Part shown: positions 3,912-40,849 of the stretch, one piece after another
How positions within the stretch are numbered: the stretch's first letter is position 1
Layout: each line of letters opens with the position of its first letter
DNA from: Octopus sinensis
Taxonomy: Eukaryota
Direction of reading: 5' to 3'
DNA: 64,000 nt
Assembly (NCBI RefSeq): GCF_006345805.1
Contig: NC_043003.1
Location: 98,766,001-98,830,000, forward strand
Notes under the pieces: generated by a model
What the model was told of the DNA's origin: nothing
The model's input: only the letters and a program-made list of their open reading frames with translations
Databases searched by the model: none
Translations under genes and position numbers: made by a program

Positions 3912-4297
3912 TTATGTGAAATAGAAAGATGAATAATCTTGTAGTAGATTAATCAAAAGTTTAACCGATACCTTAGTAGCAAGAATCACAGCAGTGAACA
4001 GCACGGTTGGAGGTACAACCATCTGGCGTTGCAACCGTGCGTTGGTGCGGATAATTGAAATTAAAACATTATTGGTGATTGAAGAAGAAATGGAGCTGAA
4101 CGCAGATTGAACAGAAATCGTTTTATTTCATTCTACACGTGTTTCGAAGGCACAAATTACCAAAATCCGATTGAATAATGGGACCATATTGTGTCTTTCT
4201 CTTCAGAAGAAAAAAAGGAAATCCGTTGGAAAAACAAAAACAGAACAGAGGAAGAGCAAAAAACAAATCGAACTGTGCTCCTAAGAGCCCATGGCGA
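3912..4297 (-). mobile_element. Non-coding Penelope pseudo-LTR-like element carrying a hammerhead fold; same family as 16206-16555
   Basis: Shares GTTAACCGATACC..GTAGCAA, CACGGTTG, TGTTTCGAAGGC and the terminal GAGCCCATGGCGA with the 16.2-kb copy. Sits next to (TA)n. Confidence 0.65.
4126..4212 (-). ncRNA. Mirror-image hammerhead fold in the left arm of the inverted repeat
   Basis: The minus strand reads TTTCTT-CTGAAGA-GAAAGACACA...TGTGCCTTC-GAAA-CACGTG-TA-GAATG. Stems are slightly weaker than in the right arm. Confidence 0.6.
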
Positions 4298-4385
4298 AAC
4301 TCTCGCCATGGGCTCTTAGGAGCACAGTTCGATTTGTTTTTTGCTCTGCCTCTGTTCTGTTTTTGTTTTTCCAACGGATTTCCTT

Positions 4386-4474
4386 TTTTCTTCCTGAAGA
4401 GAAAGACACATATGGTCCCATTATTCAATCGGATTTTGGTAATTTGTGCCTTTCGAAACACGTGTAGAATGAAA
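4386..4474 (+). ncRNA. Minimal type I hammerhead ribozyme fold (GUA cleavage triplet)
   Basis: TTC-CTGAAGA (4394-4400), stem II GAAAGACACA/TGTGCCTTTC, GAAA (4455-4458), palindromic CACGTG, TA, then GAA pairing with TTC to form stem I. Confidence 0.7.
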
Positions 4475-4489
4475 TAAAACGATTCTGTT

Positions 4490-4574
<85 letters not shown>

Positions 4575-4769
4575 AAAAGATAGATAAATAGATAAATACA
4601 AAACACATACACACATATATATATATATATACATACATATACACACACAAATGCATACAGACAGACACATATGCATACATATGTAAAATATATACACTAC
4701 TACTACTACTACAACTACTACTACTACTACTACTACTGCAACTATGTATATTTGAAACAATTATTATTC

Positions 4770-5537
4770 AGTGAGAGAGCTGCACATTACCATCAAATCG
4801 ACACTGGGGTGCAAATATATGAAGCCCAATATACCCATCATGACTACCCATGTAATAAAAGTACACCAGGCACATGCATCACAACCATATGTGCGCGAGA
4901 TGATGAACTCACACAAAGATAAACAGAGCATGACCTTGCTGATGGGGTCCAGTTATTAGAATCTTCTTCAATTGGAGTAGCATCATCTCGCTCAAAAGAT
5001 CCTTGAATAAGGATTCTTTAGCGATGGTGAACGAAACATCCATGTTTCCAGAGATGAATTATTCAAACCCCAAAGAATTCCTTATAACACATGGCTATGA
5101 TGCTCCCTTATTACTTCTGCTCGTGATATGAGATACACATATGGTCAGACACTAAGGGATCAAACAACTGACAAATCTGTGAAAATTATTATTATTATTG
5201 AGTGAGAGAGCAGTACATGCCATCAAAGTGACACTGGGGCAAAATATACGAAGCCCAGTATACCCATCATGACTACCCATCTGATTAGGGTACACTAGGC
5301 CCATGCATCAAAACCATATGTGCGCGACATGGTGATCTCATATCAAGATAAACAGCACATGACCTTGCAGGTGGGGCCCAGTTAGAATTTTCTTCTGGTC
5401 GAGTAACCCATCCCGCTCAAAAGATCCCTGAATAAGGATTGTTTAAGGATGTTGAACCAAACACCCATGTTTCCAGAGGTGAATTATTCAAACCCCAAAT
5501 AATTCCCCTCAACACATGGCTATGATGCTCATTATTA

Positions 5538-5586
<49 letters not shown>

Positions 5587-6137
5587 GAGTGAGAGAGCAG
5601 TTCATGCCATCAAAGTGACACTGGGGTAAAATATACGAAGCCCAATATACCCATCATGACTACCCGTCTGATAAAGGTACACCAGGCACATGCATCACAA
5701 CCATATGTGCGCGACATGGTGATCTCATATCAAGATAAACAGCACATGACCTTGCAGGTGGGGCCCAGTTAGAATTTTCTTCAGGTTGAGTAGCCCATCC
5801 TGCTCAAAAGGTCCCTGAATAGGGTTGCTTTAGGATGTTGAACGAAACACCTATGTTTCCAGAGTTGAATTATTCAAACCCCAAAGAATCCCTCTCAACA
5901 CATGGCCATGATGCTCCCCCACTACTTCTGCTCGTGATCAGAGATGCATATATCGTCAGCCACTAAGGGACATACTCAACTGGTTAAGGTCAAACAACTG
6001 ACAAGCAAATCTGTGGTATTGAGCAGAATATTTGCTGTAGCCCATTTTTTATACCAAGACAAAACAATGTACATGATAACACTTCAATCAGTTAAGATCA
6101 AAGCCATGAGAGCCACTGCCTGGTACTGCATCAGGGC

Positions 6138-6195
<58 letters not shown>

Positions 6196-6754
6196 GAGTG
6201 AGAGAGCAGTTCATGCCATCAAAGTGACACTGGGGTAAAATATACGAAGCCCAATATACCCATCATGACTACCCGTCTGATAAAGGTACACCAGGCACAT
6301 GCATCACAACCATATGTGCGCGACATGGTGATCTCATATCAAGATAAACAGCACATGACCTTGCAGGTGGGGCCCAGTTAGAATTTTCTTCAGGTTGAGT
6401 AGCCCATCCTGCTCAAAAGGTCCCTGAATAAGGGTTGCTTTAGGATGTTGAACGAAACACCTATGTTTCCAGAGTTGAATTATTCAAACCCCAAAGAATC
6501 CCTCTCAACACATGGCCATGATGCTCCCCCACTACTTCTGCTCGTGATCAGAGATGCATATATCGTCAGCCACTAAGGGACATACTCAACTGGTTAAGGT
6601 CAAACAACTGACAAGCAAATCTGTGGTATTGAGCAGAATATTTGCTGTAGCCCATTTTTTATACCAAGACTAAACAATGTACATGATAACACTTCCAATC
6701 AGTTAAGATCAGAAGCCATGAGAGCCACTGCCTGGTACTGCATCAGGGCATTTA

Positions 6755-6829
<75 letters not shown>

Positions 6830-7845
6830 CATCATCATTACTTTTAATTTATTAATTGAGAGACCAGTGCATGTCATCAAATTGACACTGGGATAAAATA
6901 TACAAAGCCCAGTATACCCATCATGACTACCCGTCTGATAACGGTATACCAGGCACTAACAAATTTTCTGTCTCCCTTTTCACCCTACCTTTCTGTAACC
7001 ATAATCATGTCTCACTCACTAGTACTATTTGCTGCGGCTATCTTTGGGAACCCACCATGCAACAACTTCTCCTGCCAGTTAGATAGTTCTGTTCTTTTTT
7101 CTGGTTTTTAACTTCGTTTGGTTTTGGTTTCCCTATGTTTTGCTGTGACTCTAACAGTTTTCAATAAACGTTCTTCACTATTACCTACATCGGGGTCTAT
7201 ATCTACTCTAGCTAACACCTACAAACTCTATTATTTTTGCTATTGTTATTATTATTGTTATTGAGTGAGAAAGCAGTGCATGCCATCAAAGTGACACTGG
7301 GGTAAAATATACGAAGCCCAGTATACCCATCATAACTACCCGTCTGATAAGGGTACACTAGGCACATGCATCACAACCATATGTGCGCAACATGGTGATC
7401 TCATATCAAGATAAACAGCGCATGACCTTACAGGTGGGGCCCAGTTAGAATTTTCTTCTGGTCGAGTAACCCATCCCGCTCAAAAGGTCCCTGAATAAGG
7501 GTTGTTTAAGGATGTTGAACGAAACACCCATGTTTTCAGATGCGAATTGTTCAAACCTCAAAGAATCCCTCTCAACACATGGCTATCATGCTCCCCCACT
7601 ACTTCAGCTCGTGATCAGAGATGCATATATCGTCAGCCAGTAAGGGACATGCTCAACTGGTTATGGTCAACCAACTGACAAGCAAATCTGTGGTATTGAG
7701 CAGAATATTTGCTGTAGCCCATCTTTTATACCAAGACAAAACAATGTACATGATAACACTTCCAATCAGTTAATGCTCCCACACTACTGCAGCTCGTGAT
7801 CAGAGATGCACATATCGTCAGCCACTAAGGGACATGCTCAACTGT
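4770..7845 (-). mobile_element. Tandem cluster of a ~555-bp non-autonomous (TAA)n-inserted retroelement: copies at ~4770-5183, 5200-5530, 5587-6138, 6196-6750, 6858-6958, 7263-7773 and a partial repeat 7774-7845
   Basis: Copies begin on + with (ATT)n-GAGTGAGAGAGCAG or a degenerate version. Full copies end ...GCATCAGGGCA-(TTA)n. Truncation affects only the right end, which is 5' on the minus strand. Confidence 0.9.
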
Positions 7846-7867
7846 TATTATTATTATTATTATTAAT

Positions 7868-7947
<80 letters not shown>

Positions 7948-7971
7948 TATTATTATTATCATTGTCATTTA

Positions 7972-9457
7972 CTTTTAATCTGCATGTTTGATGCAATCAC
8001 TTGCCGGAGCACACCTAGCGCCCTAGGGCAAGTGAAGGTTAAGAGTTGTTGAAATATAGCTGAAAGCTTGGGGAGGGGAAGTAGAGAAATATCTCCATGT
8101 AATACAAACACAAACATTTACATTGATAGGGTTTTTCTAAGGATGTGGGCAGTACAATCTTTTGGATTTCCTTGAGACATAGTTCTCCAGGGATATTGTC
8201 TAGGAGTTTCTGACATCCCTTTTTTATCATACCTAGGGCACCTACAATAACAGGAACAGTTTTTGTTTTAAGATTCCACATCTTTTGTATTTCGATTTCC
8301 AGGTCCTTATATTTACTAAGTTTTTCAAATTCCTTTACAGATATATTTTTATCAGTAGGGACGCTTACCTCTATTAGTCTGCAGGTATTTTCTTCCCTGT
8401 CTTTAACAATTATGTCTGGTCGATTAGCCTTGATCGTTCTGTCAGTGTTGACTGGAAAATCCCAGAGGATGGTGACATCCTTACCTTCAGCAACTGGTTG
8501 AGGATGGTGTTCATACCAGTTAGCAGGAGTGTCGAATTTGTAGTATTTACATATCTTCCAATGTATATACTGTCCTACCCTATCGTGGCGATTTTTGTAT
8601 TCGTTTGGTGTCAGCACAGGACATACCGAAACGAGATGGTCTATCGTTTCGTCAAACGTGTCGCAGAATCTGCATTTAGGGTCAGTACCGTTTCGGAGAA
8701 CGTTAGCCTGGTAATTTCTGGTAAACAAGCTTTGATCTTGTGCTGCCAGTATGAAGCCTTCAGTCTCTGCTTTCAATCCAGAACTCTTCAGCCACTGATG
8801 GGTTGTTGCTTGGTCTACATCAGCATTTTGGCTTCGGAGAATATATTGTCCATGCAGGGGCTTCTGGCTCCACCGCCTCTCAATTTGATTCTGCCCGTTC
8901 TTTTTTGCAGTCTGCTTGATTCGCTTTGCTTGCTTAGTAGCAGTGGTTTCCGACTCTTCATCTGATTCAAGGTTAATATCTAGTTCCCTTTCGAACTTAT
9001 AGGCTTCCTTGACAATAGAATGCAGCTTTTTGCTGCTTTCGTGTTCGCACACAAGTCGCAGCATCCAGTCCTTTGTACTAGATAGGTACCTGTTCATTCC
9101 TACAGTAGAGGTCTTATAGCACAGCTCCAATTGCATCATTCCTCTCCCCCCGCTACATCTAGGTAGGTACAGGCGGTCTACATCTGCCTTAGGGTGGTGC
9201 ATGCTCTTGGATGTCAGTAATTTTCTTGCCTTCCTGTCCAAGCGTTGGAGTTCCGTAAGGTTCCAGTTAATGATGTTAAAACTGTACTGGACTACTGGAA
9301 GCGCCAGGGTGTTAATGGCCTCAATGCAATTTTTGGAGTTGAGTTCAGTCTTCAGTACAAGCCTTATTCTCCTATAGTATTCCTTTCTTATTTTTTCCTT
9401 CATAGTAGCATGATGTATACCATCTCCTTCGTTGATTCCTAGGTATTTGTAACTTTT
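7972..9457 (-). mobile_element. 5'-truncated R4/Dong-clade non-LTR retrotransposon (RLE type) in a (TAA)n/(TGA)n tract
   Basis: Begins at the RT motif YKYLGI, contains ORF 8039-9403 and a short 3' UTR ending in (TAA)n. Confidence 0.92.
8039..9403 (-). pseudogene. C-terminal RT/thumb, CCHC zinc knuckle and restriction-like endonuclease of the R4/Dong ORF; small frameshift near the C-terminus
   Basis: HPKADVDRLYLPR..GGRG; CRFC..ETIDHLVSVC; RHD; PDIIV..LIEVSVP..EKLSKYKDL. The normal ending TAHILRKTLSM* lies in another frame. Confidence 0.9.
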
Positions 9458-9470
9458 ATTATTATTATTA

Positions 9471-9553
<83 letters not shown>

Positions 9554-9629
9554 CATCATCATTGCTGTAGCCCATCTTTTATACCAAGACAAAACAATGT
9601 GCACGATAACACTTCCAATTAGTTATGAT

Positions 9630-10305
9630 CCTTTTGGATTACAAGTCACCAACACCTATCGCCTGAGCCATCCATGAACTTTCGAATGATCTTCCCCGTT
9701 CTTAACAAGCAGGCCAGTTGTGTATTCGCTAAATGTTTCTCGTCTGTCCACTCTTTGAGCTTCTTTCTCGTCTGTTGTAAGGCTCTAACGACTTCAGATT
9801 TTCTGCAACCCCATAATCTGCTAATCTCTCACTTCAGGTCCTGGTATATATCAAACCTTGTTGATTTCCTTTTCTTGGAATAGGAGGGGAAAATGGGAAT
9901 TCTCAAACACGAAGCTGAAGGATTAATTTTTGCCCCTCGGGCCCAAGCCGTCTGGACAGATAGTGAAAAATGTTGAGCAGGACTCAACGTATTGCCATTA
10001 TGCAGCGTAAGCAATAAACAGGAAGAGACAGTCACCCACATAGTAAATGAATGTTCCAGACTCCAAAGAACCAGTAAAAATTTTGGAGACATGTTAATGT
10101 TGCTAAGATCAAACAAAGGGAAATGTGTAAGAAGAATCGGTTTCCATTACGCCATAAGTGGTATGAGCATGCATCTGAAAAAGTGACTGAGAATGGTGAG
10201 TTTAAAATTCTTTGGGACTTTCCTATCCAAACACAGAACCGGATTTTGTCGTTTGATAGAAGAGAACGGTATCGCTAGATAATTGATCCATTTGATACAA
10301 GATTA
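9630..10305. mobile_element. Degraded R4/Dong fragment with an internal inversion (3' part on minus 9630-9880; upstream part on plus 9882-10305)
   Basis: Plus: EETVTHIVNEC, KWYEH..EKVTEN..KILWDFPIQT, PFDTR. Minus (across frameshifts): QEKEINK..YQDLK.EISRLW..QLACLLRTGKIIRK. Confidence 0.8.
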
Positions 10306-12209
10306 TTGTTAGTTCTATTGTTGTTGTTTGTATATGACTACTATTTTGTCTGTGAGTTGTAACATTTTGGTTATTAAAAATTTACTCTGTGAAAATATTC
10401 CTTTCGATTACTTTTCAAACATAATTATTTTTTTTACAAATAGAGGACGTTGATATATCAGTACGTCAACCATAACACTTAAAATAGACAAACAACTAAT
10501 TACAAAAAATAGAGTTACAATGAATACGCCCCTTCGAAAGAAGACAGTCACATTTAATCTTTCAAGGCAAGAAAAATAATTTAGAATGGATAAACAGATT
10601 GCGAAAATGACAAACGCGAAACAAACCTTGAAACAGGAGAGATGTACTCTCAAATACAATCAAACCAATTAAGATGATATAATCAAAACCAAAGCACCCA
10701 AAAACAACAACAACACTACATACTCGCACACATATCACAGGCACGACTGGATGAAGGCTATATTATTTACTAAAATAGCGATCATTAGAGTAGAGCATAT
10801 GAAGCCAGCATTGGTTTTTGCCATAAGGAATAGTTTACTATTTAATCTATATTTCACACTGGCTGGCATGAGTGAAATTTTAACGAAATTTAAATTGCTT
10901 TTACGAAGAGCCACTTTGTCACATTTGTGAGTTAATATTTATCCCCACTTATCGGCTTTTGGGGGTACAAAATGCACTCTTATTTAGCGATATAAACAGG
11001 AGTGCATTTTGCACAAAAAGCCAGTATGAGAGTTTCTCTCATGGCATTTGCCACAGTATACTCTGGTCTAACAGAACATTTACGTTTAAGCGTAGATAAA
11101 TATTACCTCTCGGTTTTCTGTCTTTAATATAAATGTTTTTGAATATCTAAGCATCAGCTCGATCATCTGGTGTCCAGGAAAGAGAACATTGTTATCAGAT
11201 ATTAGATCACGTACATATTAAACAATCGAACAAGACTATGTCTTTCTAATTGGTTGGTTTAATCTAAAAATTACTGGTAATAAGTAATCGGGAACCATAG
11301 AACTAATTGCAAAGCATCAGACTTCTTGTGGAGAACTGATTGTAAAACACCAAATTTCTTTGCGTGTGGAACATGACTGTGTCAAAACAAATACTGTCTT
11401 CCTCCAGAAGGAAAATATAAAACCGCTTGGGTGAATCTGCATAACCTATTTTACCTTTTATAGTCAAAGAGAGGTCAGCGTTCATGGTTCCTGTTTTTCC
11501 CAGAGCCTTGTACGACAAGTAAGAGGAATATAGAAATTTAATCTCAAACCAGAAACCTAGCCTTAATGCTTGTAACAGTGTGGATGTGGATTCTGCTCAA
11601 AGCTTCCAACAAGCACATAATGCTATTAAATGAGATGACAAATTAAGTTTATTACTCAAGAACTCAGCTCTCAGAACACAAAGCGCCGGGAGAGATAACG
11701 AAAAATATCATGTATACCGATTTAGCAATTCTGCCAACCGCAGCTCTAGAATTATATTATCTAACTCGAATGGTGGGAATACAAAGTTGACTCTAATGGG
11801 ATTTGAATGCAATAGGAGAGTCAGAACAAATACCACGAGGTATTTTGTTTACCAATTTACCACCAATTCATCAGCAGAGGTGTCTATCTTAAAGATGTCC
11901 TACTTACCAGTGAAATGAACAAAGTTAAGTGTTGGAGAGACGACCGCATGATAATAACAAAGGTCAGATCACAAGCGTTCCACATATAGCCTCCATGAGT
12001 ACCAAACCGCAAAAGTTTCAGTTGATGAAATCATGTTCTATAGTCTCTAAAAGCTTAAGAGACAGTCATTGCCGCCGAAGTTGGCATGGACTTCAAATTG
12101 ACGTCTTAAAGTTCAATAATATCATACGGCTGCACACACACACACACACACAAAGATAAATTGTGTGGGCAAATAAAAATATGAGATACTTCCTAGTGTT
12201 TTTTATTTT

Positions 12210-12510
12210 TATTTTGATAAGCCTGGTACTTACTCTATCAGTTTCTTCCTGTGAAACAAGTAATAAACGAATACCAGTTGTGAGGCAGTAATGAGAGAGA
12301 AACACAAAGACACACAAACAGACTTACATATATACATACATATATATATACGATCGATTTCTTTCAGTTTCTGTCTACACAATCCACTGACAAGGCTTTG
12401 GTTGGTCTGAGGTTATAGTAGAAGACATATGCCATGTCACCACACGGTGGGACTGAACCCAGGACCATGTGTTTTGGAACGAGGTCTGTTACCACACAGC
12501 CACACCTGCA
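12210..12510 (-). mobile_element. Degenerate tRNA-derived CORE-like SINE
   Basis: Matches the family at 27525 (TTTCAGTTTCTGTCTAC, CAAGGCTTTGG, GGGACTGAACCC, TACCACACAGCC). Confidence 0.8.
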
Positions 12511-12749
12511 CCTATGTATGTGTGTATGTGTGTATGGGTGTATATGTGTATGCATGTATATATGTGAATATATAAGTGTACATATTACATGTATATCTAT
12601 ATATATATATATATCTACACATATACATGTATACATATACATCTATATGTATAGAAATAAATGTATACATATACAGCTATACACACACACACATACATAG
12701 GTGCAGGTGTGGCTGTGTGGTAACAAACTTCGTTCCAAAACACATGGTG

Positions 12750-13176
12750 CTGTGTTTAAATTTAAATTTAAAATAATAAGGGTGAGAAATTGAATATTAA
12801 TTTGATTAATATGAATTGAAAACCAGTGGTGTAGCATATAAGACCATAGCGGATCTTCTTCTAGCAAAATGGATGTCCACTGTTAATGGTTCATCCCTCT
12901 TATATAATAGTTTGACTTTAATAGTTTCAGTATTAAAGTGAAATTATCTTACATTACAATAGAGAGATGTTTTTGTTTCACTTTTAACACGTAATACTTA
13001 AATAATGGAGATGATATGATATTGTTGTGGGCTCGCCCTAGGCAAGAAGTTAGAAATTCTTTTGCCCATGACACTACATGAACCACAAGGAAGGCATGTA
13101 TAAAATTTGAATGAAATTGGTTATGTAGTTCTCAAGTTTTAGGGATTCACACAGACAGACAGACACACATTCTCAG

Positions 13177-13180: not shown

Positions 13181-13215
<35 letters not shown>

Positions 13216-13259
13216 CATATATATACATATATATAGATAGATATATACATATATAAATG

Positions 13260-15519: not shown

Positions 15520-16187
15520 CCACTTTTTTCCTCCTTTGTACGGCCACACCTTGAATACTGCTGCCCACTGTGGTCTCCTCATACAAGACAAAACATCTCC
15601 AGAATTGAGTCACCCCAGAGGGCACTCAATAAACGAATTGAAGGCATGGCTGCTCTCGATTATTGGGATCGTCTTAAAGCCTTGAAACTTTACTCCCTCC
15701 AGCGTCGCCGTGAGCGGTACATCATTTGTACGATGTGGAAAATATACCGCCAACTTTGCCCAAACGACCTAAACTTTAGCTTCAAGGTTCATCCAAGACT
15801 TGGACCACGGGCTATACGTCCCCTGCCTAATTCAAGATCACAACATACATGTACACTGCAACATAATTTCTTTTCTTCAACAGGCCCTGCCCTATTTAAC
15901 ATTGTCCCGAGGGAGATCAAAGAGGAAAAGGATCCCATCAACTTTAAACAGAGTCTGGATAGATTCCTTCAAAGAATACCAGATAAGCCACCCATAATTG
16001 GATACAACTCACCCAACAAGAACTCACTACTTGAACAAAACTGGATACAACTCACCCAACAAGAACTCACTACTTGAACAAAACTTGACTTAAACAGGAT
16101 TCGAATAATCCTATCAGGTGGTGCTATTAAGTTAGACATGGCCTGGACCAATCTTTGGTCGAAACATATCTAAGTTTATCTAAGTTT
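15520..16187 (+). mobile_element. 5'-truncated CR1/L2-group LINE 3' end inserted in (TA)n
   Basis: FVRPHLEYCCPLWSPH..LKLYSLQRRRERY..FKQSLDRFL; repeated TATCTAAGTT tail; ~43-bp tandem duplication at 16001-16085. Confidence 0.9.
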
Positions 16188-16205
16188 ATATATATATATA
16201 TATAT

Positions 16206-16555
16206 AAGTAGTTAAATGAATTATCTTAGTATGGATAATTCGGTTAACCGATACCTGGGTAGCAAATTCATGTCGGAAAAACACGGTTGAAGCTACATGC
16301 CAAGGGCAGATATCACGTGCTTTCGTGTGGAAATTTGTGTGTTTTTTTAATACAAATAAATGAAAGAATGGAGTTGAACGACGATTTAACAAAATTTCTT
16401 TATTCTCGACATATGTTTCGAAGGCTGCATATTCCTAATTTCGAAGGAATAAGGGGTGCATTATGCCGCTTTCTCATCAGGAAAAACAAGGAACTTATGT
16501 CAGCATCAAGATGAACAAAAACTTTTAGATGACTGCCCACACGGAGCCCATGGCG
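16206..16555 (-). mobile_element. Non-coding Penelope pseudo-LTR-like element with a hammerhead, (TA)n on both sides
   Basis: Homologous to 3912-4297; ends GAGCCCATGGCGA-(TA)n. Confidence 0.7.
16403..16485 (-). ncRNA. Minimal type I hammerhead ribozyme fold (GUC triplet)
   Basis: The minus strand reads TTTTC-CTGATGA-GAAAGCGGCATA...TATGCAGCCTTC-GAAA-CATATG-TC-GAGAA. Core is canonical; stems I and II pair; helix III is palindromic. Confidence 0.8.
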
Positions 16556-16789
16556 ATATATATATATATATATGAATTCTGTACGATTCTTTTACTCTTT
16601 CTTCTAGCCCCCTTTACACTTCATTCTTTCCAGATTTCTTTTCCTCGCTCCCTCTCTCTCACATTTCTTGGCCTTCCCTTCATCTTCATTTTCCCTCCTC
16701 TTTTACCTCACTTTCTCCCATTCCTTTCGTTTGCTCTCTTTCTCGTCTCTCCTTAATTTTCAATCTCTCTGCTCCACCTTTCTTTTCTT

Positions 16790-17280
16790 CTTCCACGTGA
16801 CGGTGTTCCGCCAAGCCTGACTTTTCTTTCTTGGTTCGACTACCAACTGTGTAGCATCTCTTATATTCCTTCCCATAACTTTCATCTCTTATGTTTCTGT
16901 CGTAAGGCTTCACCTCCGCACACACCAGCTTCAGTTAATTCGTTCTTAGTCGAAAGACACCTGTTGTTAATGTCCTGTTGTTTGTATTTGTAATTGTGTA
17001 CCATTTCTCAATGTTTTTCGTCCTTGTTTTTGTATACATTCGCTTGCTTTCTTCTAAGGAGTTTAGTGATCTTCTTAGCTGAGATTTTCTTGGGGTCGGC
17101 CATATTGGAGCAGTTTCGAGCGTAATCGGCTGCAACTACAAAGATAATCTGGAAGTCGACTGAGGATAGGAAGCTCCGAATGACCCGTCCTTGTTCTTTC
17201 CTGTTCATTTTTGTATCGTCTAAATTTCCAGAAGTTTTGTTGTCGCCTGTTACGTTCTTGTTCTGTATTTTTTGTTTTCT
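16790..17280. repeat. Interspersed repeat of unknown class; second copy at ~22780-23235
   Basis: Shared blocks CTTCCACGTGAC, TAGTCGAAAGACACCTGTTGTTA, CGCTTGCTT, CTTAGCT, GTATCGTCTA. Both copies are bounded by (TA)n and a CT-rich stretch. Confidence 0.75.
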
Positions 17281-22562: not shown

Positions 22563-22779
22563 ATATTTTAATATAGATACACACACATGCATACATATAT
22601 TCTTCTCTTTACTTTTTCTTTTTCTCGCTCCCCCTCTCTCACATTTCTTGGCATTCTCTTTCTTTAATCCCTACTTTTCTTCGTAATATCCCTTGTAACT
22701 TTCCCTTTGTCCCTTCCCCACCTCTCTCACTCTAGTTCCTTCCCTAATTCTACAATATGTCTCCTACTTCTCCCTGTTC

Positions 22780-23235
22780 CTTCCACGTGACCGGTCTTCG
22801 GTCAAGCATGATCTTTCTTGGCCCGACCGCCGACCGCACAACACTTTATTTTCCTGTCTCCTGACCTTTGATCTATGTTGTACCGCAAGGCTTTCAACCC
22901 ACACGCCAGCTCATGCCAACTTCTCCTTATTAGTCGAAAGACACCTGTTGTTATTCTCGTGTTTGTATTTGTAACTGTGTAACATTTTCTCCATTTTCTC
23001 GGGTTTTTTTCTGTGTTATCGTATACATACGCTTGCTTACTTCCAAAAGTTTGATACTCTTAGCTTAGATTTTTGGAGCCTACCAATTTTGAACTGTTTC
23101 AAATGTAAGAGGCCGAAACTGTATAGATAATTGGAAACTTGACTAATGAACTGAAAGCCACGAGTGATCCGTCCCTGTTTTTCCTGTCCGTCTTTGTATC
23201 GTCTATCTAACCCTGTGTTTTTATTGACGTCCGTT
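22780..23235. repeat. Second copy of the 16790-17280 repeat
   Basis: Same shared blocks as listed for 16790-17280. Confidence 0.75.
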
Positions 23236-23566
23236 TATATATATATATATATATCCACACCAAACAGTGTTTAGGCATAATTGAAGTTTCAGTCAGTTAA
23301 TACGTTTGTGACACATTTCAACTGCCAAACGCAAATTTAATGTTGTACCGTGGAGAAGAAATTTATATATATATATATATGAATATAGATATATGTAATA
23401 TTTGGAACTAATGAGTACACGTCAGTTACTGTGCTGATATGTTGAGTAAAGCCCTGGCACACTTTGGGCTACCTGATGTTAACTGCAGTTAAGGTGTATT
23501 TCCTTTGGATCTACTTCAGGAATTCCGCAGTAATAGTTGAGATAATAATCGATTAAGTAAACACAA

Positions 23567-30739: not shown

Positions 30740-32813
30740 ATTAATAAAGAAGTGGGGGAAAATTCACAAGGGTTATTGAAATCTTTTTCAAGAATAGGGG
30801 AGTTAACTCCGAAAATATCCTCTTAGTCAGGAGAGTCGTATGTCAAATGGTCTCCGTTCATACTAAAAATATGATTCACACCCCATTGCATGCCCAGGCT
30901 TGAAATTTTTTTTCCCGTTTTTGAAATTTCTTTCTTTATCCTTCCTATTCATTTGAATCTATCGAAACGTTTGAGTTGATGTTGCGCGTAGATATATCTT
31001 GTTATTTATGACCAGTCAGTTGCCAATACTCTGAACCCAGTTTCTACCTTAAGACTTTTCTACCTTGAAGAATACTAAAAATAAATTGATGAGTATTAAA
31101 AAGTTACGATATACAAATAGTAAGAACTTGATACACCAATACCGAATAACTCTACGTTCACATTAACTCGAGAAATTAGCACCAAAATAGCTTGATTCAT
31201 AAATAACGAATAGCGTGAAACATCCGGTATTATATTGACAAGTATCAAATGGCTTCAAACATGTCCTTTAATTCTCTTTCTTATTTAAGTCACAGGATTG
31301 CGACCATGTTAAACATCAAACCGAATTACGTGCAAGATTGAAAATCAACGGAATTGACCCAGTACGTACTTTAAGTCTCCTACATATTCTAGGAAACGTA
31401 AACACAAAAATGTCCGTTGTCAATTGACCAGGGACAAATATGACGATGTTCAAACATGACCTGACACATTAGTTGTATAAATAGCAATGGCTTAATACAT
31501 TGATTCGAAAAGACCTGATATATCGGTGGTTCGTAACATAGCGGTCAAAAACCATTGGAGGTACAGTGAACTTGTGATATTTCTTAGAGACAAAATATCA
31601 TTCAATGAAACGATCAAATGAAATAGATAATTAAAAGATATAAAGAGAGAGTGGGAGAGAGAGATGACGGTCTTCTGTTTCAATCAAGCAAGTTCATGCA
31701 CATGGCATTGGTCGGCTTAGAACAACAGAGAAAGACACTTGGCCACGGTATTGCACATGCGACTAAATCCAAAGGCATGTGCTTGCGAAGCACATGCCTT
31801 TATAAGCATAACCATGTAATCTTACCTGAACCTATATATGGCTTTCGCACATAAATACCATTTACTCACTCCGCATTACAATCTATATTTCATTGATTTT
31901 TCATTTATTGAAACTCATGCTAAAACCGAGAAATGGCAGAATTCTTGCGAAGTCGGAAAGAAATTACATTGCAGCATTTCTTCAGACTTTCTGAATTCTG
32001 AATTTAAATCAATTTTGCCATTCGTCAATATTGCCAACTCCTTGCCTTCATTCCTAACAGACCACAAGTGTCTGACCCGCGGCAGAACCGTCCGAGCACA
32101 CATCGGCCTGTGATGCCCTGGTCATCGTCGACAACGACGGACGAGCATTAATTAGTTATTGTTCATATATTTTGTTTTCTATTTCCCTTTAAAGAAATCC
32201 CTGGAACAAAATAGTTATCAGCCTGATAATGTTACATCTGACTTTGCTCTTAATTTTTCAGCACTTTTCTACCTTCTCCCGACACCACCACCTCAATTAT
32301 TCACTCCTTAGTTTCATATTTTATTGTCTTCGTTGTGTCTTCTCTCTTACTTTCACTGTCTTTCTCCTCCCACATTCCATATTTCTCATTTCACTTCGTT
32401 AGATTCTTTCGTAAGGAACGTACATGTTACACAAACATGAAACCAATTTGTTCTAAAAATACCGTAGATTCAAAATAAATTACGAAAATAAAAATAACAA
32501 GGATCCCCCACCCATGTCGCTCTGTCTCCCTACCTCTTTTGCCCGCTCACACTGTACAAATATATATATATTAGATTTGAGGATGTGCGCGCGCGAGTGT
32601 GTGCGTGCGTGCGCGCGTGCATTTGTATGTGCGCGCGCGTCTGTGTCTGTGTATACCTGTATTGCACATATAGATTTGAATACATGCAAACATACATACA
32701 TACACACACATATATATATACATGCCACCATTCATCACAACACACACACACCATATCTATATATATAAAATATAATATAGATATATAATATAATATAATA
32801 ATGTATATATATA

Positions 32814-32859
<46 letters not shown>

Positions 32860-33560
32860 TACATGTACATAAGTATATACATGTAAATATATATGCATCA
32901 ACATTCAACCAAACACACACGTCATATATATATGTCAATATATATATACAGAATATATACAGATATATACCTCTATATAATTGAATATCTATGTGTATAT
33001 ATATACATATATATATATATATGAATGTATATGCGTTTATGTGCATAGGTATATATGTAATATGTACGTTATAATATGTACAATATATATATATATAAAT
33101 ATATATATATATACATATATGTGTGTCTATGTGTGTGTGTGTTTGTATGTATGTATGTATGTATGTATGTATGTATGTATGTATATATACATATACATAT
33201 TCAATGCAACTGCAGAGACCCGTAGAACTACTGGTTCGAAAAGGCAAAAAAAAAAAAAATTGCAAATACGGGCTTGATTGATGCACTCACATATCAGACA
33301 AAATTGTGTTGCTTTCCTGCCAGTTAGCTGTCAGTTATATACTAATATGTGACTATGGTGAGAAATATGTTTGCCACAAGGGGGCATTCTTACACACATG
33401 GTTACTTTTATTTCTTTTAGCTTTATTTCGCGCTGCTCTGACAGAAAAAAGTTATTTTAAATTTTCTCTTATGAGAACATAGCATATTTTTCCATCTTAT
33501 ATTAGCAACATTGCTTCTTTGCTTCTTCACATGCCTAGAAATGCAATGTAAATGACTCAC

Positions 33561-33626
<66 letters not shown>

Positions 33627-34319
33627 ATATATATTATATATATATGTGTGTGTGCGTGGTGTGTGTATAAGAATATATATATATATATAGAGAGAGAGAG
33701 ATAAATAGATAGATATACATACATATATAAATATATAAATATACACATATACTTTTATATATATATATATATATATATATAAGTGTGTGTGTGTATTTAT
33801 GTATGTATGTATATCTATATGTGTGTGCATGTTTGGTGTGTGTGTGTAATATAAGCTTTATATTTCATGTATAATATATATTGAAATATATTCACTGATA
33901 TTCATAGAGAAGAAGCATTGGTGTAAACCTGATAGTTTTGATGATCTGATTAGCAAGCTTTCTCATCTGCATTGGTTTGTAAATATAGAACTGTATTGTA
34001 TAATCCCTAGCATATATGTTATCGAAGACATGTAAAATGATTTATTGCAGACTGAAATCACTATTGCGCGATGAAGGCTATGAAACAGCTGTAGTCCTAA
34101 TAATGACAAGAGTTTAAATATATTCATACCTCACACCTGCAGACGTTTTATCGTTTACATATTTCTTATAAAATAATTTCATTGATTAGATCTCTTGGAT
34201 TTCAGCCGCATAGGACTTTGCATTGAGTTTCTCCGCCCTAGATTACTATGCGGTCTGCCTACCGGGGCCGCCAGAGAAGCTATGAATCCAAATATTACAG
34301 TAAAAAATCACAGATATAG

Positions 34320-34353
<34 letters not shown>

Positions 34354-34789
34354 AAGTTAGAGGTGTTTAAAGCCTCTAAGGGATAGATATATCCAAAGGC
34401 ACTTCTGGTAATTACCTCAATGGATATATTCCTTGTTAAAAGGTATACGGCAGCAGGTAATTTAGCAGGTAACCGTAGTTTAATTTTTGTAGGCGAGAAG
34501 AAAATGAAGGACAAACAACAAACAGAAGTGTGTTTTTTGCGCTATAAGCCATTATTTAGTTATTAATAAAGGTGGAGTAGGGTAACGAAGAATATATATG
34601 CTAGGTATTTTGTGCATTTGTCTATAATGTAAGTCTGGGTTGGTGTAAGTGGTTATGGGGGGGGGGTAATTCGCTGGTGAGTAAATCTACTAGTAGGGGT
34701 GAGGCTAGGATAGTGATATGTACAGGATAGAGCGTGTTTAGCGAAATATAGAGAAGAAGAATTGGCCTATATACAGACAAAAAAAATTA

Positions 34790-35720
34790 TTTTCATGTTT
34801 TTTTAGTCAGTAGAGGCGGTTTAGCCATTAATATTTTCAGGCGCTCTGTTAAACAGAGATCGCACCGCGGTGGTTGCTAGGATGAGCTCTTTACTCTCTT
34901 TACTCTTTTACACGTTTCAGTCATTTGACTGCAACTCGACCCCGGGTCTTATTCTTTTTGTAAGCCCAGTACTTTTTCTATAAACACACCAGCATCGGTT
35001 GTCAAGCAATGCTAGGGGACAAACACAGACACACAAACACACACACGCATATATATATACATATATACGACGGGCTTCTTTCAGTTTCCGTCTACCAAAT
35101 CCACTCACAAGGCTTTGGTCGGCCTGAAGCTATAGTAGAAGAAACTTGCCCAAGGTGCCACGCAGTGGTAATGAACCCGGAACCATGTGGTTGGTAAACA
35201 AGCTACTTACCACACAGCCACTCCTTAAACTATAATTAATTTTTTAATCCTTTAATTCCTAGATGTAGCTACTGAGAACTGTAGAGTTTGCTTTACTTCT
35301 ACTTCTAATGCTAGATTGGTGTGAGTTTTATCTCAGTATTATTTTTTTTTGTGGCGCCTATATACGATTTCGTATGGTTATTTGTGAGAACGTTGCATTG
35401 GTATACTACATTTTGTCTTTTACACCTATTAGAGAATTGGCTCTTATTTCTGTCTCTAGCCACATAAAATATGCTGTCTATCTGTGCTAGTATTGTATTG
35501 AGGGGTGGGGGCTATTATTAGTTGGGTCGTTGTCCCTGTTACTTGAAGGCGCATCTTTAGGGTGGGATTTCTTCTATTCGGAGGTTGGCTGTTCTGTTTT
35601 ATGTTGCTGATTGTCCTGGTTTCATACGTGTCAAGTTTATTACTATTTATTGAGGCTATGATAGTAGCTAAGTTATTAGTCAGGCTTTGGCCTACTCTGA
35701 GTAGACTGTAGGCTATGGAT
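34790..35720 (-). pseudogene. Penelope-like element GIY-YIG endonuclease remnant, split by a SINE
   Basis: Manual minus-strand translation: CKRQNVVYQCNVLTNNHTKSYIGAT (~35350-35425), NSHQSSIR..STVLSSYI*ELKD, and beyond the SINE CDLCLTERLKILMAKP (~34820-34865). Confidence 0.82.
34888..35225 (-). mobile_element. CORE-like SINE with internal deletions
   Basis: Same family as 27525. Confidence 0.9.
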
Positions 35721-35757
35721 GATCGTGTGTGAATATAGATATGCGTATACATGCACG

Positions 35758-35820
<63 letters not shown>

Positions 35821-36129
35821 ATATGTATATGTATATGCATATGTATATATATATATATATTTATAACAGAAATATGTTAGAAAAAGAAATTAGATACTAC
35901 ACGTGGGAAAGTAAGAGAAAGGGGAAAGTATGAAAAATAAACGAAAATGTACATTGTAAATAAAAAAAGTAAAGGTTTTTTAATGAAAAGTAACGAAAGA
36001 TATATACAATTAGATGAACTGAGGTAAGAATAAAAGGAATAAAAGTCATTATTGAGAATTGTTAAAGAGATTCAAGCATACCGTTTCGTAAGTTGCTAAT
36101 CATTGCTTTGAATACAACTATTCATTGCT

Positions 36130-36174
<45 letters not shown>

Positions 36175-36505
36175 TATATTGTTGTGTTGTTGTGTGTGTA
36201 TAAAACTCCCTTGATATTAATAAAGTGATATTAAATAAAGCGTTAGCATTCTGAAACTTTTGAACATACTCCATGGATCCAGTCTAATTGAACAAAATTC
36301 GGGATTCGGAAAAGCGTCTTGAATGTTCTCTTCTAAACAAAACCCCCCAAAAACATGTTTTATGTAAATGAACAAGCTGTTTGTACGTTCACAAAATTTT
36401 ATTTAGCGAATTCGAGAAACGAACGAAAGCGTTAATAATAATGAAGAAATAAAAAGATATTTTTCCTAAATTCTGACGACCTATTGTTTTTTCAATATTC
36501 AATTT

Positions 36506-36691
36506 CTGTTATTTCGTCTGCCGTTACGTTCTGAGTTCAAATTCCGCGGCGGTCGACTTTGCTTTTCATCCCTTCGGGGTCGATTATATAAGTACCAGCT
36601 ATGCACTGGGATAGATGTAGTCAACTTAATCCCTTTGTCTGTCCTTGTTTGTCCCCTCTATGTTTAGCCCCCTATGGACAATAAAGAAATA
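36506..36691 (+). mobile_element. 5'-truncated Nin-like SINE with target-site duplication AATATTCAATTT
   Basis: Duplication at ~36494-36505 and ~36692-36703; central domain and tail match 28491. Confidence 0.88.
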
Positions 36692-37312
36692 AATATTCAA
36701 TTTGTGTACATCACACCTAATACTTTATTCATATATGTGTGTGTTTGTGTGTGTGTGCATGTGTGTGTTTACGTGTACACACACACACACACACCACACA
36801 CACACATGCATGCATGTGTGTAATAATGTATATATGGGTATGCTTCAACAGAAAGTCCCCGTCACCTCCTTTATATAACATATTTGGTTCCACCATCAGT
36901 AGCGAAACTTTTCAGCAGTAAATGTTTTCTTGTTATTTATCGCTTAACAACGCTAATATTTATATAAATAAAGAAGACAGATATAAAAGTAGGGAGTATC
37001 AGAGAAAGAAAGACAAGGGAGAGAGAGAGTGAGAAAACAAGAGAAGAATTACGTATTATTTCGTCTTTTGCTTTCACGTGATCTACCTTTCTCTTTGATT
37101 TACGTTTTAAAGAGTAACTCTGAAGTGTTCTGGACGGTTGCCATACGTTACGCCCGTTTGTTATATCGCATTTGCGAACAGTTTTTTTTTTCTTGTTTTC
37201 TAGTGTTTTCAGTTTAAGTCTTTATTAAACGATGTTTTCATACACACATGTTTTATACATATATACATACGTGCATACATTCAAATATACACACATATAC
37301 ACACACATACAC

Positions 37313-37713
37313 GCACAGGAGTGGCTGTGTGGTAAGTAGCTTGCTAACCAACCACATGGTTCCGGGTTCAGTTCCACTGCGTGGCATCTTGGGCAAGTGT
37401 CTTCTGCTATGGCCCCGGGCTGACCAATGCCTTGTGAGTGGATTTGGTAGACGGAAACTGAAAGAAGCCTGTCGTATATATGTATATATATATATATGTG
37501 TGTGTGTGTTTGTGTCTGTGTTTGTCCCCCTAGCATTGCTTGACAAACGCCGATGCTGGTATGTTTACATCCCCGTCACTTAGCGGTTCGGCAAAGAGAT
37601 CGATAGAATAAGTACTGGGCTTACAAAGAATAAGTCCCGGGGTCGATTTGCTCGACTAAAGGCGGTGCTCCAGCATGGCCGCAGTCAAATGACTGAAACA
37701 AGTAAAAAGAGTA
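37313..37713 (+). mobile_element. Full-length CORE-like SINE
   Basis: Same family as 27525. Confidence 0.92.
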
Positions 37714-37793
37714 ATATATATATATATATATATATATTATATTATATATATATCTGTGTGTGTTCATATGTATATATGTGTTTACATATATGG

Positions 37794-37827
<34 letters not shown>

Positions 37828-38300
37828 ATGTATGTATGTGTGTGTGTGTGCAAATGTTGAGCGATGAAAATGAGTGCTCAACATTGGTGGATAGAATTTC
37901 TTTAGTTGTGTATTAAGGCTACCATTGGTCTCATGTTAAGAAAGATATCTTAATATCCTAACAATTGTTCCAACCGATTACATGGATATATGGTGTTTGT
38001 CTCCATTTTTTTTTGTTTTTGTTTTTTATCCACAATGGAGACTATCAACATTTCTACATGTGATCGGCTTGAAAAATTGTTAGGATAATAAGATATTTTC
38101 TCATCATTAAACCAATGGTAGCCTTTAAACATGAATATATATATATATAAATCCTTTAAAATATTTTAGCCCGAAGGCCGCGGCCATGCTGGGGCACCAT
38201 ATATACATATATATATATATATATACAAATACATACAAAGAGAGAGACAGACAAACAGATAATTAGATATATAAATATATATGTGCATATGTATATATGA

Positions 38301-38334
<34 letters not shown>

Positions 38335-38437
38335 GGATATATATATGGATATATATATATATAGACGCATACATATACATATATATATACATGTGTGTAT
38401 GTAGTCGTTGTAGTAGTAGTAGTAGTAGTGTAGTAGT

Positions 38438-38470
<33 letters not shown>

Positions 38471-38634
38471 AAATGAATGTTACAGGATCAATAAATGATC
38501 GGTTAAACTTGTGATATACGCTGGTATTCTGCCGGGACAGTGATAAGTCAGGTCCGTATGGTTGACATTAGATAGTAGGTTAAGGCATTTCATCATAGGT
38601 ACAGTCCAATGCTAGATGAGAATGAAGAAGGCAC

Positions 38635-38735
38635 GTCCTTACAGCTGTTTCGAGAACAGATGTGCAGCTTGTATAATTCCCTGCAAGCAGTCCGCAGCCA
38701 GCATTTTAGTTGCAGTCTATTTCATCTTCGGTGGG
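38635..38735 (-). ncRNA. Degenerate hammerhead-like fold with long stem II
   Basis: Minus strand: CCGAAGA-TGAAATAGACTGCAACT...AGCTGCACATCTGTTCTC-GAAA-CAGCTG-TA. U4 is changed to C and stem I is poor. Confidence 0.4.
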
Positions 38736-39035
38736 AAAGACAATTTTAAAAAAGTTTTTCTTTTCATTCCTTTGGTTTTCATTTAACATTCATTTCTACT
38801 TTCGTGTTCTAAGAATGTATAAATATAAAAATGCCATAATCTAACCTGATAGCTCCTGTTTACTTGTTTGTACCTTTATTCTATTGTACAACTACGAACT
38901 CGAGTGAAACATTGCCTAGAGCCTGTCTTCATTAGGTACATATATCATCTCTGCATTTTTAGTTGCAGTTCAACTTGAAGTTTATGTAGGAAATCAACTA
39001 GTTTATTAATTCTATGTACCTCTTATCAGACGTTA

Positions 39036-39108
<73 letters not shown>

Positions 39109-39342
39109 GTTTTGCAGTGAAAATTTTCACAGTAACTTTGAAGATTTGGCTCAGTTGTCTTCACAGTTTTTTTTCTGTTTTTGGTTTTGGTTTTTTTCTT
39201 TGTATTTCAAAATGTTTCATATAGTTTTGTTTCATCTCTTAAGAAGAGTTTCATCAGAAAGACAAGTTCAATTATGTGAGCAGAAATAAGGAGATGAGGG
39301 AAGAAGGAAGAGCTAATAGAATAAGGAGTGGGACATAAAGGG

Positions 39343-39510
39343 AAGAAGAAGAAGAAGAAGAAGAAGAAGAAAGAGAAGAAGAAGAAGAAGAAGAAGAAGA
39401 AGAAAAAGAAAAAGAAGAAGAAGAAGAAGAAAAAAGAAGAAGAAGAAGAAGAAGAAGAAGAAGAAGAAGAAGAAGAAGAAAAGAAGAAGAAGAAGAAGAA
39501 GAAGAAGAAA
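39343..39510 (+). repeat. (GAA)n microsatellite, about 165 bp of pure purine
   Basis: Seen directly. Confidence 0.95.
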
Positions 39511-40461
39511 AGGCGTTATAGTGGAGAAGTAGGGAAGTAGGGGAGGCTTTGATGTCCTTACTTTCATTAAAATTAGGTATATGAACCGCAGGAAATTAAA
39601 GATTGGCTTCATAGGCTTGTATTGGTCCACTGAAGTGCCGAGGAGATGAGACTTGTATAGGACTACGGGTAAAAATTAGGTCAACATCTGTGGTTTGTGT
39701 TGAAATGCCGCGTCCAAGCTATTTTCAATGGTTTACCCAGTCACTTCAAATCTAACCGTAAGTATCACAAGATGATAAACAAGCACAGTTTTAAAACATA
39801 TTCCACAACAAGCAACTTCGAAAAGTCAATAGATAATGACTATCATTTAACATATATGAAATATGAACGCCACAACAATACATCTAGCCCCCAAAACTGC
39901 AAGTGTAACTCCTATTCGCTGGCTCTCCAAATACAAACTGCTTCACAAGTAACATTAGTAGCATTCTCTATAATGCAATGGTAAGCATCGATATTACAAT
40001 CCTTCTTTTTCATATATAACTATAGTTACCAACTAATTCATAATAGGATATTATAAACATGTGTATATATTCTGTAACTCTGCATTGCCGTACACAGCCA
40101 AAAATATGTACTGCCAGTATTGTACCATTGAAGCATTTCAAATTCTCATCTCAAAAACAAAACGCATGAACCGAAGCACGGCATAAGAATTGTCCATTTA
40201 GATATGCGTGTATAGATAAAAATATAGGAGTACATCGGTTCAAGCGTTACGTCCATATTTTTTTCTTCAAACAGCCGCAACTGTGATGATAGTGTCAATG
40301 TTACACTAGGAATCTGTCACCTATTAGCTTTGTTAGCTCCTCAGTTTCATGGTACGTTTCTCTGCCAACGATACTATCCATGTGGTTGACTGAGAATCGT
40401 CTTCAATTAACATGGGGAAGTCTACAAAATACAATATAACACATGTAACGTACATATATAC

Positions 40462-40512
<51 letters not shown>

Positions 40513-40776
40513 TAATATATCAATGAAAAAATATAGCAATACAAAGTATTACTTTTCAGTAAAATAAAGCTTCGTAAGAGTAGAAGTATAAATATAAATA
40601 CAGATGAGTAGTACAAGACACGAATATTTACTGGAAATAGTAGTCGATACAAATACGACGCTATTGTAAAGTTTTACTGCGTATACACTGACAAAGACGT
40701 GTGAGTGCTACAAACATGACAAATTTGTCTTACCTCTAGGAAGAACATTCGATAAATGGACGACCCAGAATCGGAT

Positions 40777-40849
40777 AATGCAAGACCGGTTTCGGACTCT
40801 TCAAATACGTTTGTCAACGTAAATTTGATCAGTCTTCATCAGCTGCATT
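40777..40849 (-). ncRNA. Minimal type I hammerhead ribozyme fold (GUC triplet) within a ~350-bp element lying between (TA)n tracts
   Basis: The minus strand reads AATGCAG-CTGATGA-AGACT.TCAAAT.TACGTT.GACA.AACGTA.TTTGA.AGTCC-GAAA-CCGG-TC-TTGCATT. Stem I is 7 bp and stem II is long, with an A-C mismatch at its base. Confidence 0.8.

What the first reader, a model, noticed from the sequence alone, without database searches (positions are those of the whole stretch)
3912..40849. Dispersed non-coding elements in (TA)n tracts carry intact-looking minimal hammerhead ribozymes
Seen: at 4386-4474(+) and its mirror 4126-4212(-), at 16403-16485(-) and at 40777-40849(-), the order is stem I, CUGANGA, long stem II, GAAA, a short palindrome (CACGTG, CATATG, CCGG), UH, stem I'. 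The 4-kb and 16-kb copies belong to one family whose stem II loops have diverged while the core and pairing persist; AATAAA follows the cleavage site in both. The 40.8-kb copy is unrelated in sequence but has the same fold. Known: Penelope-like element pseudo-LTRs and retrozymes encode such minimal hammerheads, and a palindromic helix III allows dimeric cleavage. Inference: these ~350-bp ORF-less units are non-autonomous, ribozyme-processed retroelements that favour (TA)n and are mobilised by a Penelope RT/GIY-YIG protein; a decayed GIY-YIG lies at 34.8-35.7 kb.
Basis: partly seen in the sequence, partly recalled or inferred. Interest (0 to 1): 0.85.

Follow-up and report, generated by a model that had tools for sequence, protein, structure and literature searches.

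The report
Hammerhead-bearing Penelope-type mini-repeats in TA tracts
Short repeats wedged into runs of TA carry intact-looking hammerhead ribozyme motifs and are likely non-coding offshoots of Penelope-like jumping genes, a known kind of element whose self-cutting here is predicted, not tested.

Summary
The motifs are real. A strict descriptor finds 3 in the window against 0.02 per shuffle, and the mirror copy is there too. The 4-kb and 16-kb units are one family of 353-386 bp. They start at the same 5' base and abut (TA)n; thousands of diverged contigs from public runs lie on the 16-kb unit. The 40.8-kb unit is unrelated and lacks the G10.1-C11.1 pair.

The kind is published: minimal, dimer-type hammerheads of Penelope-like elements (PLEs), mostly single or in inverted pairs, with (TA)n targeting, including in an octopus PLE. 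Best reading: short ORF-less PLE derivatives copied in trans; lone copies are likely dead ends.

Not shown: cleavage, covariation (0 of 15 pairs), tandem source copies, circles, or a partner. The decayed GIY-YIG at 34.8-35.5 kb is real and Hydra-type, but shares no sequence with the units, and Hydra hammerheads have a different shape. Apparent RNA ends near the cut site are explained as an assembly-graph artefact. The unusual points are the long helix II (42-54 nt) and the fixed 5' end. New member of a known kind.

The parts
3912..4297 (-). Unit A, full-length copy (386 bp) of family A/B
4122..4216 (-). Hammerhead of A-minus (C3 4206, predicted cut after 4134); weak helix I
4303..4491 (+). Inverted, 3'-truncated second arm of A; same 5' start after a 5-nt spacer (4298-4302); 184/191 identical to the other arm
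4384..4478 (+). Hammerhead of A-plus (C3 4394, predicted cut after 4466)
16205..16557 (-). Unit B (353 bp), family A/B, (TA)n on both sides
16396..16490 (-). Hammerhead of B (C3 16480, predicted cut after 16408)
40521..40936 (-). Unit C (about 416 bp), second family; ends defined only by the TA tracts
40774..40852 (-). Hammerhead of C (C3 40842, predicted cut after 40784); A10.1.C11.1 mismatch; weak HH9-like match
3840..3910 (.). (TA)n tract at the 3' end of A
4493..4539 (.). (TA)n tract at the end of the A-plus arm
16558..16575 (.). (TA)n tract at the 5' end of B, shared with the neighbouring repeat
34353..35734 (-). Decayed Hydra-type PLE 3' fragment: GIY-YIG pieces at 35457-35344, 35333-35217 and 34915-34802, broken by stops, frameshifts and a dispersed repeat at about 34890-35226. 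Not linked by sequence to A, B or C

Best explanation
A and B are copies of one short, ORF-less repeat family that carries a minimal type I hammerhead motif and sits in (TA)n, and the family is likely a non-autonomous derivative of a Penelope-like element, copied in trans by a TA-targeting PLE reverse transcriptase/GIY-YIG protein. The ribozyme is predicted to work only as a dimer, through the 8-nt palindrome. It would matter in tandem source copies, where two cuts release a unit-length and possibly circular RNA. The lone or inverted copies in this window are likely dead-end insertions that decay. A likely arose when the polymerase folded back at the template's 5' end. C is likely a copy of a second family of the same kind.
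For: Shown: motifs far above chance. Both arms of A and B start at the same base although A and B are only 62% alike overall, and in A that start has no TA tract beside it. All 4 homology-defined outer ends abut (TA)n, against 1.7% of non-TA positions lying within 4 nt of a TA tract. 3535 and 2522 contigs of two DNA? runs, most 90-99% alike, lie on the 601-bp stretch; summed depth is 1.5e5-1e6 over 16226-16540 and about 1e3 at 16583-16624 (not a copy number). Most relatives read G at 16470, which completes a 5-bp helix II (510k of 675k; 285k of 350k). Monomer helix III gives no real gain (-0.1 to +4.6 kcal/mol against leaving it open), whereas the palindromes self-pair at -7.0 to -10.3. No Hydra-type protein match in the units. 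Established: single and opposite-strand min-HHRs 100-700 bp apart, palindromic helix III, low dimer-only activity (PMC4209133); inverted 5' copies and (TA)n bias (PMC8557442); retrozymes as non-autonomous PLE derivatives with many monomers (bioRxiv 2026.07.22.740005).
Against: No genome was available, so the fixed 5' end rests on two independent insertions. Of 32 listed contig pieces, 3 RNA? pieces and 1 DNA? piece stop matching at 16519-16521 and run on for 22-144 unshown letters, and 4 more run 53-70 letters past the clipped 5' end. Longer forms may therefore exist. No tandem copy is in the window and no go-back joint was listed, although the unit ends were skipped as repeats. No covariation. 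Core conservation among relatives is not significant: 0 of 27 listed variant positions fall in the 19 core and helix III positions, with 1.45 expected (hand count, which shows 40 of 93 rows). The active fold lies 3-9 kcal/mol above the MFE in all four copies. No partner was identified. In the anole PLE, ribozyme mutants still inserted in vitro.
Confidence: 0.55

Rival explanations
1. The units are 5'-truncated 3' ends (solo pseudo-LTRs) of autonomous PLEs; the shared 5' start is a strong reverse-transcription stop or an internal TA tract of the parent, and no separate non-autonomous family exists.
For: This is the published reading of most single min-HHRs. Contig pieces that diverge at about 16521 and run on up to 144 letters, and 3 opposite-strand joints with varied breakpoints. 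[quoted passage not shown] PLEs make up 6.83% of the O. vulgaris genome in 190 families.
Against: The same 5' base in two insertions only 62% alike, with no TA at the centre of A. No coding remnant was detected. No match to 21 Hydra-type loci or, by eye, to the 3' ends of Naiad_Obim and Naiad_Ovul. Neptune, Poseidon and Nematis parents were not tested.
Confidence: 0.33
2. The units are monomer offspring of canonical tandem non-LTR retrozymes that make abundant circular RNAs, with mobilisation by a LINE or by RNA-level replication rather than by a PLE enzyme.
For: Unit size matches mussel retrozymes (350-390 bp). Family contigs lie in RNA? runs of 4 studies (2 laid). C weakly resembles canonical HH9.
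Against: No tandem array was seen. TA targeting, inverted arms and the lack of a poly(A) tail point to PLE chemistry. The RNA label of the runs is a guess.
Confidence: 0.08
3. The units are non-autonomous DNA elements (MITE or Helitron type) or host-selected ribozymes, and the hammerhead is incidental or co-opted.
For: The 5' end reads TC after A, and B has a sub-terminal hairpin.
Against: No terminal inverted repeats and no CTRR end. Two unrelated families share the same ribozyme fold. Older TA-flanked units in the window show only decayed motifs.
Confidence: 0.04

Closest known systems
Minimal hammerheads (min-HHR) of metazoan PLE pseudo-LTRs (Cervera & de la Pena 2014, PMC4209133; parts 1-2 of 4 of the text read)
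   Same: Type I topology, intact core, short palindromic helix III, enlarged helix II; mostly single motifs or opposite-strand pairs 100-700 bp apart.
   Different: The helix II region here is 42-54 nt (published example 7-8 bp). No extra nucleotide after A9 in A/B. The unit has a fixed 5' end. No flanked ORF was found.
Hydra-clade PLEs incl. Hydra-1_Obim (Craig et al. 2021, PMC8557442; passages, section 11, supplement parts 2, 24, 52 of 59; the held file is cut)
   Same: (TA)n insertion; hammerhead within a few hundred bases of the 3' end; inverted 5' copies; an octopus family with a fixed end and no pLTR.
   Different: Hydra hammerheads have 11-21 nt between A9 and G12 (8 of 21 loci) and an odd-length helix III with a short loop. 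A, B and C have 42-54 nt and even, loop-less palindromes. No sequence similarity.
Animal non-LTR retrozymes (Cervera & de la Pena 2020, PMC7229834, passages and sections 14, 17; Li, Clavereau & Pollet 2026 preprint, parts 1-3 of 5, supplements closed)
   Same: ORF-less units of 170-400 nt with a type I hammerhead, dispersed monomers, proposed PLE origin and mobilisation.
   Different: Defined by tandem arrays and circular RNAs; neither is shown here. TA-tract targeting is not described in the parts read.
Poseidon PLE of Anolis (Frangieh et al. 2024, PMC11167929; parts 1-2 of 4)
   Same: Hammerhead upstream of a defined 3' end; AT-rich target.
   Different: Autonomous; its ORF starts inside the ribozyme; cleavage is protein-assisted and was not needed for insertion in vitro.

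Membership tests
Type I hammerhead ribozyme | CUGANGA, GAAA and UH core in order, closed by helix I | tested here: met
   4 of 4 copies have the core letters; A and B differ only at N7 and H17 (copies were found by the core, so this is circular)
Type I hammerhead ribozyme | G10.1-C11.1 pair at the base of helix II | tested here: inconclusive
   met in A+, A- and B; not met in C (A.C)
Type I hammerhead ribozyme | Rfam gathering score | tested here: not met
   RF00163 14.9/34 bits (A+), RF02275 18.2/52 (C), none for B; the long helix II is an insertion to the models
Type I hammerhead ribozyme | Covariation of helices | tested here: inconclusive
   0 of 15 pairs in 3 rows; one two-sided change in the dimer palindrome
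Type I hammerhead ribozyme | Self-cleavage | not testable with these tools
   energies only
PLE min-HHR | Short palindromic helix III, enlarged helix II | tested here: met
PLE min-HHR | Lies in a pseudo-LTR next to an RT/GIY-YIG ORF | tested here: inconclusive
   not in the window; no genome; unshown upstream extensions in contigs
EN+ Penelope-like insertion | (TA)n target, no poly(A) tail, inverted 5' copy | tested here: met
   opposite-strand joints. In A the inverted arm is 3'-truncated, not 5'-truncated as in the canonical pattern
Hydra-clade PLE terminus | Short helix II (11-21 nt) and odd helix III; sequence link to a Hydra ORF | tested here: not met
Naiad terminus | Similarity to octopus Naiad 3' ends | tested here: not met
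   by eye for Naiad_Obim and Naiad_Ovul; 0 motif hits in the held supplement (file cut and line-broken)
Non-LTR retrozyme | Head-to-tail tandem units, each with a hammerhead | tested here: inconclusive
   none in the window; no go-back joint, but ends skipped
Non-LTR retrozyme | ORF-less unit of 170-400 nt | tested here: met
   353 and 386 bp for B and A; C is about 416 bp
Non-LTR retrozyme | Expressed as circular RNA | not testable with these tools
   contigs only; RNA label guessed

The most novel reading that the evidence does not exclude
Octopus genomes hold a high-copy, SINE-like class of PLE parasites with fixed ends and a long-helix-II dimer hammerhead. Source tandems separated by short (TA)n are cut into unit circles, and the circle's own (UA)n spacer anneals to a nicked genomic (TA)n to start and finish reverse transcription. 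This would explain exact ends, TA flanks on both sides and the lack of a pseudo-LTR, and would give a small testable substrate for the open question of what PLE hammerheads do.
Probability: 0.13. Interest if true: 0.62.

Novelty: new member of a known kind. Interest (0 to 1): 0.3.

Why it matters
If the best reading holds, it adds two unannotated hammerhead-bearing repeat families to a genome that is likely an octopus, and extends the PLE hammerhead shape to a 42-54 nt helix II, which short-helix descriptors and Rfam cut-offs miss. That improves repeat annotation but does not change the known picture. It would matter more if the fixed 5' end and a tandem or circular source were confirmed: a 350-nt non-coding substrate is a convenient way to test whether ribozyme cleavage has any role in PLE transposition, which the papers read leave open.

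Tried and rejected
1. RNA ends at the cut site. Four of 16 listed RNA? pieces stop at 16411, 3 nt short of 16408. Rejected: 16411 is 16441 minus 30, and 16441 is a three-letter variant, so 31-mer unitigs break there anyway.
2. Higher RNA? depth downstream of the cut than upstream. Not used: contig depth cannot rank parts. No listed holder is on record as RNA.
3. Naiad 'half-core' origin. Rejected for the two octopus Naiads read.
4. Hydra remnant as partner. No sequence link. A possible relic hammerhead at its 3' end (about 34350-34420, by eye) passes no scan.
5. The 5' start as the C-R-H codons of a GIY-YIG end. No conserved frame follows, and the Hydra profile finds nothing significant in the units.
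6. AATAAA as a poly(A) signal. Chance is 0.85% per site, but it is one post hoc event, overlaps or adjoins helix I, and is absent from C. Left open.
7. Pattern scans for family A/B: 0 hits in metagenome, genome and viral collections.
8. Window-wide Rfam: the 150 rows shown of 397 are all microRNA-family matches below their cut-offs. No tRNA gene.
9. Pfam found nothing in the 3 GIY-YIG pieces scanned, and a word search with one piece found no candidate.
10. A covariance model from A/B found only its 3 training copies in the window.
11. Earlier findings by sequence or place: none.
Literature searches listed no paper on this family. The 2026 O. vulgaris repeat annotation has 0 occurrences of 'hammerhead' or 'ribozyme' in its main text. 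Repbase, Dfam and that paper's repeat library could not be searched, so the family may already be catalogued as an unclassified SINE or PLE.
Full report
Setting. The window is AT-rich, microsatellite-dense animal DNA. No whole genome is held. The best protein match to a retroelement remnant in the window is an Octopus bimaculoides protein (E 1.1e-11), so the host is likely an octopus; this is an inference from one hit.

Observation. A descriptor for helix I, CUGANGA, helix II, GAAA, short helix III and UH finds three sites, with C3 at 4394(+), 16480(-) and 40842(-), all with perfect palindromes. Shuffles give 0.02 hits per window, and 0 of 200 have a palindromic hit. The mirror copy at 4122-4216(-) has the same core but a weaker helix I and fails the strict test. 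Rfam gives only sub-threshold hammerhead hits for A+ and C and none for B, because the long helix II is an insertion to the models. C has A10.1 opposite C11.1 and is probably impaired.

Anatomy. Unit B spans 16205-16557(-) and unit A 3912-4297(-). They are 62% alike end to end, against 48% for the unrelated C vs B. A has a second, inverted arm at 4303-4491(+), 184/191 identical, that starts at the same base after a 5-nt spacer and stops 25 nt past its cut site. Both arms of A and B begin at the same nucleotide. The four outer ends fixed by homology all abut (TA)n, while 1.7% of non-TA positions lie that close to a tract. There are no terminal inverted repeats and no poly(A) tail, and no Hydra-type coding remnant was detected. 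The predicted cut lies about 150-165 nt from the 5' end and about 200-220 nt from the 3' end, so it defines neither end. In a read-through transcript of A the two arms would pair over about 190 bp and bury the ribozyme (inference).

Family. Twenty of 24 listed runs, from 8 studies, hold part of B. Four were laid on 16100-16700: 3535 and 2522 contigs in two DNA? runs, and 103 and 68 in two RNA? runs. Summed depth is 1.5e5-1e6 inside the unit and about 1e3 just outside its 5' end; the stretch beyond the 3' end was skipped as repeat. The tool warns that this is no copy number; I read it only as a large, diverged family. Most relatives read G at 16470, which repairs the A.C mismatch of helix II, and a common variant at 16405 turns a helix I G-U into A-U. 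None of the 27 listed variant positions falls in the 19 core and helix III positions, but only 1.45 are expected and 53 of 93 rows were not shown. Three opposite-strand joints show that inversions recur. No go-back joint was listed, but the unit ends were skipped. Several pieces run on upstream with letters not shown (for minus-strand records I inferred which end overhangs). The RNA? pieces ending at 16411 are explained by the variant at 16441 and are not evidence of cleavage.

Fold. Closing helix III in a monomer gives no real gain (-0.1 to +4.6 kcal/mol), whereas the palindromes form 6-8 bp intermolecular duplexes of -7.0 to -10.3 kcal/mol. The active fold is 3-9 kcal/mol above the MFE in every copy. 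Between A and B the palindrome changes CG to TA and stays a palindrome; both changes are also what CpG decay would give. Helices I and II show no two-sided change in a 3-row alignment.

The GIY-YIG remnant. A profile from 27 Hydra-type protein segments finds three pieces in order on the minus strand at 35457-35344, 35333-35217 and 34915-34802 (iE 3e-6, 4.5e-4, 0.13). Their motifs match the published Hydra alignment by eye. The remnant shares no sequence with A, B or C. Eight of 21 Hydra-type loci carry hammerheads with 11-21 nt between A9 and G12 and odd palindromes, unlike the 42-54 nt and even palindromes here. The remnant shows that TA-targeting PLEs were active in this genome; it does not identify the partner.

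Mechanism. Shown: the motifs, the fixed ends in two insertions, the TA flanks and a large family. Established from papers: PLE hammerheads are dimer-type and slow, mostly occur as single or opposite-strand motifs, and several PLE clades target (TA)n and leave inverted copies. Inferred: a PLE protein nicks (TA)n and reverse-transcribes a 350-390 nt RNA from a defined 3' start to a defined 5' end; fold-back at that end produced A; cleavage, if used, acts on tandem source transcripts; lone copies decay. Against a processing role: in the anole PLE, ribozyme mutants still inserted in vitro and no RNA-seq ends were found at the cut site; in Xenopus 8 of 9 retrozyme dimers did not cleave. I put non-autonomous PLE derivative at 0.55, truncated ends of an autonomous PLE at 0.33, canonical retrozyme offspring moved otherwise at 0.08, and other at 0.04.

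Comparison and novelty. The units work like PLE min-HHR termini and monomeric non-LTR retrozymes. They fail the Hydra shape test, and retrozyme membership is unproven because tandems and circles were not seen. Earlier findings of this scan report the same kind in several other genomes (unchecked leads). Eight literature searches listed no description of this family, but repeat databases were not searchable, the Craig supplement is held cut, and the preprint's supplements are closed. Papers seen: PMC4209133 parts 1-2 of 4; preprint 2026.07.22.740005 parts 1-3 of 5; PMC8557442 passages, section 11 and three supplement parts; PMC7229834 passages and sections 14, 17; PMC11167929 parts 1-2 of 4; PMC6765202 passages; PMC13282606 passages and a supplement search. 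Lunse et al. was seen only as cited in PMC6765202. Hammerhead numbering and the MITE/Helitron end features are recalled knowledge. Verdict: real, new member of a known kind, interest 0.3.

Noticed in passing
window 37909-38131: Old head-to-head palindrome (74% arm identity) near TA tracts; each arm ends in a decayed hammerhead-like stretch with an ACAATTGT-type palindrome and a 6-bp helix I. Looks like an aged version of structure A; model score only E 1.3.
   Followed up: partly
window 16575-17280 and 22600-23240 (+): Two TA-flanked copies of a 640-700 bp repeat with a pyrimidine-rich 5' half and a possible relic hammerhead core; the first sits head-to-head with unit B across a short (TA)n tract.
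   Followed up: partly
window 58306-59298: Two 431-bp arms, 99.5% identical, inverted around a (TA)n tract; recent fold-back or assembly artefact; no intact hammerhead.
   Followed up: no
window 39673-39984 (+): Frame with weak resemblance to the Hydra PLE linker (tblastn E 0.16; not found by the profile), about 500 bp from the 3' end of unit C on the other strand.
   Followed up: partly
window 41780-41998 and copies at 28.5, 36.5, 46.7, 50.7, 51.1, 52.7, 62.4 kb: Abundant SINE-like repeat; the copy at 41914(-) mimics a hammerhead with U at position 6. Probably a chance overlap with a Pol III B-box-like motif (recalled). The octopus Naiad 3' ends show a similar U6 near-core.
   Followed up: no
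window 4760-9630, 42094-42669, 46061-47400: Many fragments of a 550-bp repeat ending in (TTA)n, next to a decayed non-LTR RT C-terminus at 8039-9472(-).
   Followed up: no
window 1-2105: 27-bp minisatellite, 62.7 copies on one strand, then switching orientation at about 1695.
   Followed up: no
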